From assembly GCF_045037415.1 (NCBI RefSeq), contig NZ_CP173439.1: DNA of 64,000 nucleotides; one strand, 5' to 3'. Shown here piece by piece: positions 34,245 through 35,098 of the stretch (positions are counted from its first letter, which is position 1; the number at the start of each line of letters is the position of its first letter). The translations under genes and the position numbers were made by a program. Below the pieces are notes generated by a model. That model was not told the origin of the DNA. It saw only the letters and a list, made by a program, of their open reading frames with translations, and did not search any database. Source of the DNA: Escherichia coli. GTDB taxonomy: Bacteria; Pseudomonadota; Gammaproteobacteria; Enterobacterales; Enterobacteriaceae.

Positions 34245-34514
34245 ATGGATGAAAAAGTATACTTTCGCCTCAGCTATGAAACGATGACCGGCGATACGGA
34301 AGACTTCATTAACGCATGTATTGAACGGGCAAACCGTGCGGACTGCAACGATACCGATGCGGAGATTGCCCGCGCACGCAGCACCATTGAACTCTGGTAC
34401 TGTCTGGCACTCGCGGGGCGTGCCCCAGACGACGTCGCCGACAGGGATCATCTGCGGTTCACCGAAATGCTCCTGCGCGCCCCGACAGCAGAACAACGCG
34501 CATGTCAGCTGTAA
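34245..34514 (+). CDS. hypothetical protein (GC-rich module, gene 1)
   Basis: 89-aa ORF in a visibly GC-rich segment; overlaps the next ORF by 13 nt. No recognisable family. Confidence 0.45.
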   Translation: MDEKVYFRLSYETMTGDTEDFINACIERANRADCNDTDAEIARARSTIELWYCLALAGRAPDDVADRDHLRFTEMLLRAPTAEQRACQL

Positions 34515-35098
34515 CCTCCCGTGGGCCGTCGCCGCTGCAACGACGGGTGCTGATTGTGCTGGCTGCCCTTGATGAAAAACGGCCTGGCCCCGTGCTGACT
34601 CGGGACATAGAACGGGTGCTGGAGCGAAGCGGGGAAGCCCCGGTCTACGGACCAAACCTGCGCGCCTCCTGCCGGCGCATGGAAGCATCAGGCTGGCTTC
34701 GCACACTGCGCGCCCCGAATCTGCAGCTGGCTGTCGAACTGACGGACGCCGGCCGGGCCGTGGCACAGCCTCTGCTGCTGGCAGAACAGGACCGCCTCCG
34801 GGCAAAACAGCGCGCGGCAGAAGTCGTCGTACTGCCGCTGGTCCCGGCATCAGGTCTGCCCGCAGACGGCACTTCTGCCACTGATCTGGCGGTGGAGCTG
34901 AACGGCATGACGTATCAGGCCTGCCGTGGGGATTTTGTGGTACGTCTCGACGGCAGCACCTGTCTGCAGTTATGGAACAGAGAAGGCAAGGTGGTACGCC
35001 GGGAGGGCGATCCGCTGGAAGTGGCGCAGTGGCTGCAGGCCTGTCATGATGCCGGAATAAAAGTTCGTGTACAGGTTAATGAAAGTATCACCCCGTAA
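34502..35098 (+). CDS. hypothetical protein with N-terminal winged-helix-like segment (GC-rich module, gene 2)
   Basis: 198-aa ORF; N-terminus (RRVLIVLAALDEKRPGPVLTRDIERVL) resembles MarR/ArsR-type DNA-binding helices. Confidence 0.5.
   Translation: MSAVTSRGPSPLQRRVLIVLAALDEKRPGPVLTRDIERVLERSGEAPVYGPNLRASCRRMEASGWLRTLRAPNLQLAVELTDAGRAVAQPLLLAEQDRLRAKQRAAEVVVLPLVPASGLPADGTSATDLAVELNGMTYQACRGDFVVRLDGSTCLQLWNREGKVVRREGDPLEVAQWLQACHDAGIKVRVQVNESITP

What the first reader, a model, noticed from the sequence alone, without database searches (positions are those of the whole stretch)
34245..35098. GC-rich two-gene module of unknown function between ccdA and the lasso island
An 89-aa ORF and an overlapping 198-aa ORF with a winged-helix-like N-terminus sit in a segment visibly richer in G+C than the AT-rich DNA on either side, with a convergent small membrane protein gene (35116-35463). 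Composition suggests a separate origin from the surrounding backbone. I cannot assign either protein to a family from sequence alone.
Basis: seen in the sequence. Interest (0 to 1): 0.4.

Follow-up and report, generated by a model that had tools for sequence, protein, structure and literature searches.

The report
Widespread plasmid ydfA–ydeA regulator cassette
The two GC-rich ORFs are real genes, the uncharacterised ydfA–ydeA pair carried by thousands of enterobacterial plasmids, and they most likely encode a winged-helix DNA-binding repressor plus a small partner that control their own promoter through a conserved array of palindromic sites.

Summary
ORFs 34245-34514 (89 aa) and 34502-35098 (198 aa) are real, overlapping plus-strand genes in the GC-richest 600 nt of the window (0.66 against a mean of 0.49). 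The minus-strand 207-aa ORF is a shadow of GC-rich coding DNA (1 synonymous against 23 non-synonymous differences).

The pair is ydfA–ydeA of IncI1 plasmids (R64, ColIb-P9). At least 5000 of 72,556 PLSDB plasmids carry ydeA, as do 2079 of 5426 complete E. coli genomes. It is always annotated "hypothetical" and has no Pfam or NCBIfam family.

- **YdfA:** an acidic three-helix bundle (pLDDT 90).
- **Operator array:** sites of the form AAAATCATATC-N-GATATGATTTT sit at fixed positions about 36.5 bp apart upstream. They persist in lineages with about 50% protein identity and before solo ydeA genes.

Best reading (inferred, about 0.55): an autorepressed regulatory cassette that heads variable cargo, such as the ibfA phage-defence gene in R64. 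In this window it is a recombinant with no cargo, abutting a colicin Ia/Ib remnant. High GC is a trait of the family, not evidence of recent import. Interest is moderate.

The parts
34036..34069 (.). Conserved inverted repeat carrying two GATC sites (CGCGGATCCGG ... CCGGATCTGCG), just upstream of the operator array. Function unknown.
   Evidence: pair I8, 11-nt arms, 91% complementary. The same element, AGATCCG-N12-CGGATCT-GCGCGG, is seen in L013, L014, L002, L011 and L003 and upstream of the solo ydeA in L029. No T run follows it, so it is not a canonical terminator.
34089..34208 (+). Predicted operator array. Half-sites matching GATATGATTTT or its complement lie at 34089-34099 (perfect), 34113-34123 (degenerate), 34149-34159 plus 34161-34171 (a palindrome, AAATTCATACC-T-GATATGATATT), and 34198-34208. 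The right-hand half-sites read TGnTATGAT, which is an extended -10-like sequence.
   Evidence: The half-sites sit at the same distances from the ydfA ATG (about -157, -132/-120, -96/-84, -59/-47) in 6 loci and in 12 unique loci, where the columns conserved at 80% or more coincide with the half-sites and the spacers vary. The array is also present before solo ydeA in L015 and L029 and before the pair in L027, which has a third ydfA type. This window's copy is the most eroded one.
34245..34514 (+). ydfA-like gene ('type A' allele), 89 aa, acidic (pI 4.55, charge -7). Predicted three-helix bundle. The Shine-Dalgarno sequence GGAG lies at 34233-34236.
   Evidence: The AlphaFold2 model has pLDDT 90.2, with helices at 11-29, 37-57 and 62-77. 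dN/dS is 0.16 against the Klebsiella copy, with 25 of 39 substitutions at third positions. The allele occurs in 1075 PLSDB plasmids. It is about 29% identical to the IncI 'type B' ydfA, with conserved M1 D2 F7 L9 S10 Y11 E12 E19 C25 E40 W51 G58 D66 D68 R71.
34502..35098 (+). ydeA, 198 aa. It consists of an N-terminal winged helix-turn-helix (residues about 11-80), a long helix (82-106), a disordered linker (about 112-125), and a beta-rich C-terminal domain (129-192) of unknown fold family. Its start overlaps the ydfA stop by 13 nt, which suggests translational coupling.
34227..34850 (-). Shadow ORF (207 aa). Not a gene.
   Evidence: 1 synonymous and 23 non-synonymous codon differences in this frame, against 26 and 11 in the + frame. 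The frame is interrupted by stops in the IncK copy. No family or homology support.
35116..35463 (-). DUF6404 membrane protein gene, convergent with ydeA. It belongs to the colicin Ia/Ib block, not to the ydfA-ydeA cassette.
   Evidence: Pfam DUF6404, E=1.8e-36. It is present next to ydeA only in colicin-type plasmids and absent in R64 and Klebsiella plasmids.
35574..35921 (+). Colicin Ia/Ib-type (E1-family) immunity gene.
   Evidence: Pfam Microcin/colicin E1 immunity, E=3.6e-7. PGAP gives the same name in identical plasmids.
35942..36229 (-). 3' remnant of a colicin Ia/Ib gene (C-terminal part of the pore-forming domain only). Homology to IncK ends near 36138.
   Evidence: Pfam Colicin pore-forming domain, E=2.1e-15, profile positions 109-185 of 185. 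Alignment to L002. PGAP annotation.

Best explanation
The segment carries the ydfA-ydeA cassette, a self-contained regulatory unit that is part of the backbone of many enterobacterial plasmids. YdeA is a winged-helix DNA-binding protein and probably dimerises through its long helix, as PadR, MarR and F-93 proteins do. It is predicted to bind the conserved palindromes (ATCAT and ATGAT cores about 12 bp apart) that sit at about 36.5-bp intervals directly upstream of ydfA. These sites overlap extended -10-like sequences, so binding would repress the cassette's own promoter and any genes transcribed from it further downstream. YdfA is a small acidic three-helix protein whose translation is coupled to that of YdeA. 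It is inferred to modulate YdeA as a co-repressor or an anti-repressor. The novel C-terminal domain of YdeA is inferred to mediate either higher-order assembly across the operator array or signal sensing. In other plasmids the cassette heads variable cargo: ibfA and a ProQ/FinO gene in R64, a 164-aa DNA-binding protein and an Hha-like gene in Klebsiella IncF/IncR plasmids, and DUF6884 plus an SNase nuclease in a metagenomic relative. In this window the cassette is a recombinant (Klebsiella-type ydfA allele, IncI-type ydeA) and has no cargo, because a convergent DUF6404 gene and a decayed colicin Ia/Ib locus follow it. Here it would regulate only itself, or act in trans. What is shown: both genes are real and under purifying selection; the folds; the distribution; the conserved operator array. 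What is inferred: DNA binding to that array, autorepression, and the roles of YdfA and the C-domain.
For: - **Real genes.** Codon-position and dN/dS tests support both + strand ORFs.
- **Operator array.** Half-sites lie at fixed offsets in 12 unique loci. Conserved columns coincide with half-sites while spacers vary.
- **The array is more conserved than ydfA.** The upstream 175 nt are 63-79% identical between lineages whose ydfA coding DNA is only 53-57% identical.
- **The array follows ydeA when ydfA is absent.** The ATGATT core recurs at -118, -82 and -45 before a solo ydeA in a 4.3-kb Rep3 plasmid that encodes no other candidate binder except Rep, which has its own separate iterons (6 occurrences against 0.6 expected). 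It also recurs before the solo ydeA in L029, and before the pair in L027, which has a third ydfA type.
- **Match in the window.** The full palindrome matches once in 64 kb, against 0.02 expected.
- **Coupled genes.** The ydfA stop and ydeA start overlap in every paired locus.
- **Published transcription data.** RT-PCR shows ydfA-ydeA-ibfA-proQ-like as one transcript in an R64-like plasmid. The predicted start site is 69 nt upstream of ydfA, between the second and third operators (PMC12111858).
- **Variable cargo behind a constant head**.
Against: - No experiment links YdeA to these sites. The assignment rests on co-occurrence and conservation.
- ydfA alleles are shuffled independently of ydeA: L013 and L014 have 95% identical ydeA but 53% identical ydfA. 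This fits poorly with a tightly co-evolving protein pair.
- The simple sigma-70 scan found no + strand promoter in the array.
- The window's own array is partly degenerate.
- In PMC12111858, ibfA with its own promoter sufficed for most of the phage phenotype (EOP 0.05, against 0.01 for the whole operon). Any regulatory contribution of the cassette is therefore modest or unproven.
Confidence: 0.55

Rival explanations
1. Orphaned relic. The cassette is functional in IncI and Klebsiella plasmids, but in this IncF plasmid it is a leftover dragged in with a now-decayed colicin Ia/Ib locus. It no longer does anything useful and regulates nothing but itself.
For: The colicin gene next to it is reduced to a 96-codon remnant. 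No same-strand cargo follows ydeA. The window's operator array is the most eroded of those compared: one perfect half-site, one good palindrome, two degenerate sites. Another E. coli IncF lineage (L012) has lost three of the four site positions and carries a 31-aa in-frame deletion in ydeA.
Against: Both ORFs are intact. The Shine-Dalgarno sequence and start-region context are conserved. dN/dS is 0.16 on the branches leading to this copy. The identical arrangement persists in at least 13 plasmids and 30 complete E. coli genomes.
Confidence: 0.15
2. Centromere-like or other architectural nucleoprotein complex. YdeA coats the regularly spaced repeat array as a plasmid-maintenance element, as TubR does on tubC or ParR on parC, rather than acting as a plain repressor.
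Against: No NTPase partner is conserved next to it, and its neighbours vary. It occurs in a 4.3-kb iteron plasmid, which is unlikely to need active partition. The TubR similarity is just the generic winged helix shared with hundreds of repressors.
Confidence: 0.1
3. Toxin-antitoxin or addiction-type pair. Two small, overlapping, autoregulated plasmid genes fit this pattern, with YdeA resembling an AbiEi-like winged-helix antitoxin.
For: Gene overlap, small size and plasmid location. A weak AbiEi_4 match (E=0.025, below the cut-off of 25 bits). The cassette sits among CcdAB, VapBC and GNAT/DUF1778 pairs.
Against: PADLOC gives only a sub-threshold winged-helix match to JetA (E=0.0026). Pfam and NCBIfam have no toxin-antitoxin or toxin family for either protein. 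No AbiEii nucleotidyltransferase is nearby. ydeA occurs alone in several lineages (L007, L015, L028, L029, L030), which is hard to reconcile with it being a toxin. YdfA is a plain acidic three-helix bundle with no enzyme-like features.
Confidence: 0.06
4. The minus-strand 207-aa ORF (34227-34850) is the real gene.
For: It is the longest ORF in the segment.
Against: 1 synonymous and 23 non-synonymous differences in its frame, stops in the IncK copy, and no homologues or families. Long antisense ORFs also appear opposite ydeA in L003 and L015, as expected for 65-69% GC coding DNA.
Confidence: 0.01

Closest known systems
ydfA-ydeA of IncI1 plasmids R64 / ColIb-P9 (named ORFs of unknown function)
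   Same: ydeA is 92-94% identical in protein sequence. It sits in the same position beside DUF6404, the immunity gene and the colicin gene as in ColIa/Ib-type plasmids. It has the same gene overlap and the same upstream array. In an R64-like plasmid the pair is co-transcribed with ibfA (PMC12111858).
   Different: The window's ydfA is a different allele, 29% identical in protein sequence and 84% identical to the Klebsiella-plasmid type. The host replicon is IncF. The downstream ibfA or intact colicin is missing.
MarR / PadR / HxlR / F-93-type dimeric winged-helix repressors
   Same: The fold of residues about 10-106: three helices, a beta-hairpin wing and a long C-terminal helix. Palindromic operators overlap the regulator's own promoter.
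   Different: No family HMM reaches its threshold. YdeA has an extra ~75-residue beta-rich C-terminal domain with no detectable relatives, a translationally coupled small partner, and an array of four phased sites instead of one or two.
BrxR / CapW-type winged-helix regulators placed in front of phage-defence operons (from my knowledge of the literature, not tested against their sequences)
   Same: A winged-helix protein with an added C-terminal domain at the head of an operon that can contain a defence gene (ibfA / HEC-04 in R64). The cargo behind it varies.
   Different: No WYL or WCX domain was detected by Pfam. Much of the cargo is not recognisably defensive. Here there is no cargo at all.
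AbiEi antitoxin (winged-helix N-domain plus C-domain, autorepressor on inverted repeats)
   Same: Two-domain layout with an N-terminal winged helix. A weak AbiEi_4 hit (E=0.025). Inverted repeats in its own promoter.
   Different: The hit is below the Pfam cut-off. No AbiEii partner is present. The partner gene lies upstream and is a three-helix bundle.

Membership tests
IncI1 (R64/ColIb-P9) ydeA | High sequence identity to the R64 ORF lying between ydfA and ibfA | tested here: met
   tblastn gives 92% identity over 97% of the query to R64drd (H42). The R64drd locus shows an 85-aa ORF, a 196-aa ORF, a 1557-bp AAA ATPase gene (the length given for ibfA) and a ProQ/FinO gene, matching the order described in PMC12111858. 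UniRef names a 87%-identical protein 'YdeA protein' (P0033).
IncI1 (R64/ColIb-P9) ydfA | Homology to the small ORF immediately upstream of and overlapping ydeA | tested here: met
   Only 29-31% identical, but significant pairwise (E=7e-7). It has 3 invariant and 15 nearly invariant columns across 21 sequences and the same position and overlap. It is a distinct allele class ('type A').
MarR family (Pfam PF01047 / PF12802) | Match to the family HMM above the gathering score | tested here: not met
   No MarR hit in Pfam at E up to 1. There is only a profile match to the recognition helix and wing of MarR structures at E=0.006, plus structural similarity.
PadR family (PF03551) | Match to the family HMM; winged helix plus C-terminal dimerisation helix | tested here: inconclusive
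AbiEi antitoxin (PF13338 AbiEi_4) / type IV toxin-antitoxin system | HMM match above cut-off, and an adjacent AbiEii nucleotidyltransferase toxin | tested here: not met
   15.2 bits against a cut-off of 25. No nucleotidyltransferase gene is adjacent in any locus examined.
PaaX-like regulators (PF07848) | HMM match above cut-off | tested here: not met
   12.8-16.9 bits against a cut-off of 24.8. The Foldseek alignment to PaaX-like 3l09 has rmsd above 15 A.
BrxR/CapW (wHTH-WYL-WCX) defence regulators | WYL domain following the winged helix | tested here: not met
   No WYL hit for the full protein or for 22 C-domain sequences at E up to 10.
Known anti-phage defence proteins (PADLOC-DB) | Match to a PADLOC model | tested here: not met
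   Only a weak winged-helix match to JetA (E=0.0026, 14.5 bits). Nothing for the small ORF.
Autoregulated operator-repressor unit (functional class) | The protein binds repeated sites overlapping its own promoter | not testable with these tools
   The sites exist and are conserved. Binding needs EMSA, footprinting or reporter assays.
DUF6404 (neighbouring gene 35116-35463) | Full-length HMM match | tested here: met
   E=1.8e-36, profile positions 1-114 of 115.

The most novel reading that the evidence does not exclude
ydfA-ydeA with its four-site phased operator array is a portable 'gatekeeper' cassette. It keeps variable plasmid cargo silent in established cells and releases it on a signal sensed by the novel YdeA C-terminal domain or by YdfA. 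The cargo would include the ibfA/HEC-04 phage defence, a DUF6884-SNase nuclease pair, and H-NS/Hha-like silencers. The signal could be plasmid entry into a new cell or phage infection. This would be a previously unrecognised, very common regulator family of plasmid accessory and defence genes, present in about 38% of complete E. coli genomes.
Probability: 0.2. Interest if true: 0.65.

Novelty: new variant of a known kind. Interest (0 to 1): 0.35.

Why it matters
ydeA-like DNA is found in at least 5000 PLSDB plasmids and in 2079 of 5426 complete E. coli genomes, almost always on plasmids. These include IncI1, IncK, IncF and IncR resistance and virulence plasmids of E. coli, Klebsiella and Salmonella. 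Despite this it has no Pfam or NCBIfam family and is annotated 'hypothetical'.

A concrete, testable model now exists: a winged-helix autorepressor acting on a defined operator array. This would allow the gene to be annotated. It could also explain how the adjacent variable region is controlled, including the ibfA abortive-infection gene of R64.

The name is a hazard. It collides with the chromosomal MFS exporter gene ydeA and can mislead functional interpretation.

For this window specifically, the result is mainly clarifying. The 'odd' GC island is a mosaic remnant of a colicin Ia/Ib region joined to a common backbone cassette, not an exotic acquisition.

Tried and rejected
- **Family scans.** Pfam, NCBIfam, PADLOC and PHROGs scans of both proteins gave nothing above threshold. 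The only hit was phrog_19460, of unknown function, covering the winged-helix region.
- **PDB sequence searches.** The full-length YdeA profile gave only marginal MarR/DtxR helix-wing matches. The small ORF and the C-domain gave nothing meaningful.
- **C-domain.** A Pfam scan of 22 C-domain sequences at E up to 10 returned only scattered single-member noise.
- **YdeA fold searches.** Both were dominated by the winged helix, so the C-domain fold stayed unassigned.
- **Long forms.** The C-terminal extension of the 300-428-aa forms has no Pfam match.
- **Promoter and terminator scan.** No + strand promoter was found in the array, and no terminator after ydeA.
- **Rfam.** Nothing at E up to 1 over 33500-36400.
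- **Literature.** Only PMC12111858 (co-transcription with ibfA) and PMC8004404 (a structural breakpoint inside ydeA) are relevant. 'DUF6404' has no papers and 'DUF6884' has nothing functional.
- **Accession AP005147.** Not in the collection. R64drd NZ_OQ683450 was used instead.
- **Rejected hypotheses.** The minus-strand ORF as the gene. Regulation specific to the colicin locus, because the pair occurs without colicin in R64 and Klebsiella plasmids. GC content as evidence of recent foreign origin.

Full report
**What is there.** The window is an E. coli IncF plasmid. The region is 100% identical to pVR50B and about a dozen other plasmids.

- The two plus-strand ORFs are at the stated coordinates: 34245-34514 (89 aa) and 34502-35098 (198 aa), overlapping by 13 nt.
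- GC reaches 0.64-0.67 between 34350 and 34950, against 0.37-0.45 on the flanks. This is the GC maximum of the whole 64 kb.
- The convergent gene 35116-35463 is a DUF6404 membrane protein.
- Beyond it lie a colicin E1-family immunity gene (35574-35921) and a 96-codon 3' remnant of a colicin pore-forming domain (35942-36229).

**Which strand codes.** I compared the window with an IncK plasmid copy, L002.

- 30 of 40 substitutions in ydeA fall on third positions of the plus frame.
- That is 26 synonymous and 11 non-synonymous codon changes in the plus frame, against 1 and 23 in the frame of the minus-strand 207-aa ORF. That frame also carries stops in L002.
- Nei-Gojobori dN/dS is 0.16 for ydeA (window against L002) and 0.16 for the small ORF (window against a Klebsiella copy, 25 of 39 substitutions at third positions).
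- Both plus-strand ORFs are therefore real genes under purifying selection. The minus-strand ORF is the usual shadow of GC-rich coding DNA; similar shadows lie opposite ydeA in L003 and L015.

**Identity and distribution.**

- The 198-aa protein is 92-94% identical to the 196-aa ORF of IncI/IncK plasmids. UniRef calls a close relative 'YdeA protein'.
- In R64drd the order is an 85-aa ORF, a 196-aa ORF, a 1557-bp AAA-ATPase gene and a ProQ/FinO gene. This matches the ydfA-ydeA-ibfA-proQ-like unit described in PMC12111858. That paper demonstrated co-transcription by RT-PCR and predicted a promoter about 103 bp upstream of ydfA, with a start site at -69.
Hosts include Escherichia, Klebsiella, Salmonella, Enterobacter, Shigella and Citrobacter, and most of the plasmids are conjugative.
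- megablast finds ydeA in 2079 of 5426 complete E. coli genomes, with 2779 of 2812 places on plasmids.
- A search of cluster representatives gives only 212 clusters at 50% identity, so the family is small and coherent.
- No Pfam, NCBIfam or PADLOC model reaches threshold.

**Mosaic structure.**

- Homology to the colicin Ia/Ib block of IncI/IncK plasmids runs from about 34526, just inside ydeA, to about 36138, inside the colicin remnant.
- The small ORF and the first codons of ydeA belong instead to an allele class typical of Klebsiella IncF plasmids. They are 86% identical in nucleotides to L013 and only 54% to the IncI allele.
- ydfA alleles are shuffled relative to ydeA elsewhere too. L013 and L014 share 95% identical ydeA but 53% identical ydfA. 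A third, very divergent ydfA type exists in L027.
- The window's exact combination occurs in about 30 complete E. coli genomes. The type-A ydfA allele occurs in 1075 PLSDB plasmids, 957 of them from Klebsiella.

**The GC signal.**

- ydeA is 63-69% GC in every enterobacterial plasmid examined, and also in a 4.3-kb Rep3 plasmid whose backbone is AT-rich. GC1 is about 0.77 and GC3 is 0.64-0.81.
- The composition is therefore a long-standing property of the gene family, partly forced by an Ala/Arg/Leu/Gly/Pro-rich protein. It does not indicate recent import into this plasmid.
- The 'separate origin' idea is right only in the sense that the ydeA-to-colicin block came from an IncI-type context.

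**Structures.**

- YdeA, modelled with a 30-sequence alignment, gives pLDDT 86.2. Its elements are helices 11-26, 33-42 and 50-62, a wing at 66-80, a long helix at 82-106, a disordered linker, then five strands, a helix and a strand (129-192).
- A sequence profile also touches the MarR recognition helix and wing (E=0.006).
- The N-terminal half is basic (pI 10.95) and the C-terminal half is acidic.
- The C-terminal domain has no sequence relatives in Pfam or PDB. I could not search it structurally on its own.
- Longer family members (300-428 aa) add a further C-terminal region, also without Pfam matches.

**The cis element.** Aligning the 260 nt upstream of ydfA from different plasmid lineages shows a fixed layout of half-sites matching GATATGATTTT or its complement.

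- A lone site lies at about -157. Three palindromes, AAAATCATATC-N-GATATGATTTT, lie at -132/-120, -96/-84 and -59/-47. The repeat interval is therefore 36-37 bp.
- Across 12 unique loci, the columns conserved at 80% or more coincide with the half-sites and with the ribosome-binding region, while the spacers vary.
- This upstream region is 63-79% identical between lineages whose ydfA coding DNA is only 53-57% identical.
- The layout persists in L027, where ydeA is 52% identical and ydfA is a third type.
- It also persists in front of solo ydeA genes. In the 4.3-kb Rep3 plasmid L015 the ATGATT core lies at -118, -82 and -45, with 6 occurrences against 0.6 expected. That plasmid's Rep has its own distinct 22-bp iterons. 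A reduced version is present in L029.
- The right-hand half-sites read TGnTATGAT, an extended -10-like sequence. The start site predicted in PMC12111858 (-69) falls just downstream of the second palindrome. That step is my inference.
- In the window the array is at 34089-34208 and is the most degenerate copy: one perfect half-site, one good palindrome and two weak sites.
- A further conserved inverted repeat with two GATC sites (34036-34069) precedes the array in all lineages, including L029. It is unexplained.

**Context elsewhere.** The pair is constant while its surroundings change.

- Downstream: ibfA plus ProQ/FinO in R64. The convergent DUF6404, immunity and colicin Ia/Ib genes in IncI-gamma/K, an 89-kb plasmid of an E. 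coli O157:H7 strain, and E. coli IncF plasmids. A 164-aa 'DNA-binding protein' and an Hha-domain gene in Klebsiella IncF/IncR plasmids. DUF6884 plus an SNase nuclease behind a long-form ydeA in metagenomic contigs. A small membrane protein and a lipoprotein in the Rep3 plasmid.
- Upstream neighbours are often defence-like genes on the other strand (AAA ATPase, DUF3800, HEPN, DUF4238) or metal-resistance operons.

**Interpretation.** The best-supported model is an autoregulated cassette, as set out in the Best explanation section.

- YdeA dimers bind the phased palindromes over their own promoter.
- YdfA is a translationally coupled modulator.
- The YdeA C-domain provides higher-order assembly or sensing.
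- Whatever lies downstream on the same strand comes under this control.
- In this window nothing lies downstream, so the cassette is at most self-regulating.
- I put about 0.55 on this model overall. The sub-claims rank roughly as follows: real genes, above 0.95; YdeA is a DNA-binding winged-helix protein, about 0.9; it binds this array and autorepresses, about 0.6; YdfA is a modulator, about 0.35.

**Rivals.** Four alternatives were considered.

- A functionless orphan in this particular plasmid (0.15).
- A centromere-like or architectural complex (0.10).
- A toxin-antitoxin pair (0.06).
- The minus-strand ORF as the gene (at most 0.01).

Solo occurrences of ydeA and the lack of any toxin or NTPase partner argue against the toxin-antitoxin and partition readings.

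**Novelty and interest.** The genes are already in databases under the names ydfA and ydeA, but they are uncharacterised. What is new here is the fold assignment, the operator array, the modular allele shuffling and the scale of the distribution. In kind, this is a winged-helix autorepressor (a known kind) with an unfamiliar C-terminal domain, a coupled partner and a four-site phased array, so I class it as a new variant. A specialist would find it useful rather than startling. I score interest at 0.35.

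Noticed in passing
window 34036-34069; also L013, L014, L002, L011, L003, L029 upstream of the operator array: A conserved inverted repeat, AGATCCG(A/G)-N12-(T/C)CGGATCT followed by GCGCGG, carries two Dam (GATC) sites. It has no T run, so it is not a canonical terminator. One symmetric, compensatory-looking change separates the window copy from L013. Function unknown.
   Followed up: partly
window 35942-36229 (-), 35574-35921 (+): A decayed colicin Ia/Ib locus. An intact E1-family immunity gene sits next to a colicin gene that retains only the last ~77 residues of the pore-forming domain. Homology to IncK plasmids stops near 36138, where the lasso-peptide island begins. 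Immunity has been retained without the toxin.
   Followed up: partly
L013 vs L014, window vs L002/L013, L027: ydfA exists in at least three highly divergent allele classes (about 29% protein identity or less). These are exchanged independently of ydeA, with a junction at the ydfA/ydeA overlap. The pattern is cassette-like shuffling of the small partner gene.
   Followed up: partly
literature: PMC12987596: An IncK2 plasmid GWAS hit named 'ydeA' is interpreted there as the chromosomal MFS L-arabinose exporter. IncK plasmids carry the unrelated 196-aa winged-helix ydeA studied here, so a name collision may have led to a wrong functional reading. I did not verify the UniProt entry cited in that paper.
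   Followed up: no
L003/L004/L005/L006 (metagenomic contigs), genes after long-form ydeA: A four-gene overlapping operon: an 86-aa ydfA, a 417-aa long-form YdeA, a DUF6884 protein (226 aa) and a secreted-type SNase nuclease (159 aa). It may be an uncharacterised nuclease-based module under the same cassette.
   Followed up: partly
L012 (E. coli IncF pS14-1129-1) 4750-5516 and upstream: A decaying copy of the cassette. Three of the four operator positions have been replaced by unrelated DNA, and ydeA has a 31-aa in-frame deletion that removes the long helix and linker.
   Followed up: partly
L015 (4.3-kb metagenomic Rep3 plasmid): A tiny iteron plasmid (four 22-bp iterons at 4046-4155, with inverted copies before rep). 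Apart from Rep it encodes only a solo 69%-GC ydeA homologue with its operator array, a 69-aa membrane protein and a 131-aa lipoprotein.
   Followed up: partly
window 11500-16350: A second GC-rich stretch (0.60-0.64 in 600-nt windows) elsewhere in the window. Not examined.
   Followed up: no
window 36577-36765 and 36785-38281: The start of the lasso-peptide island. A 62-aa ORF precedes a 498-aa asparagine-synthetase-like ORF. PGAP annotates only part of the latter as hypothetical in identical plasmids, followed by a lasso B2 protein and an ABC transporter. This lies outside the present finding.
   Followed up: no
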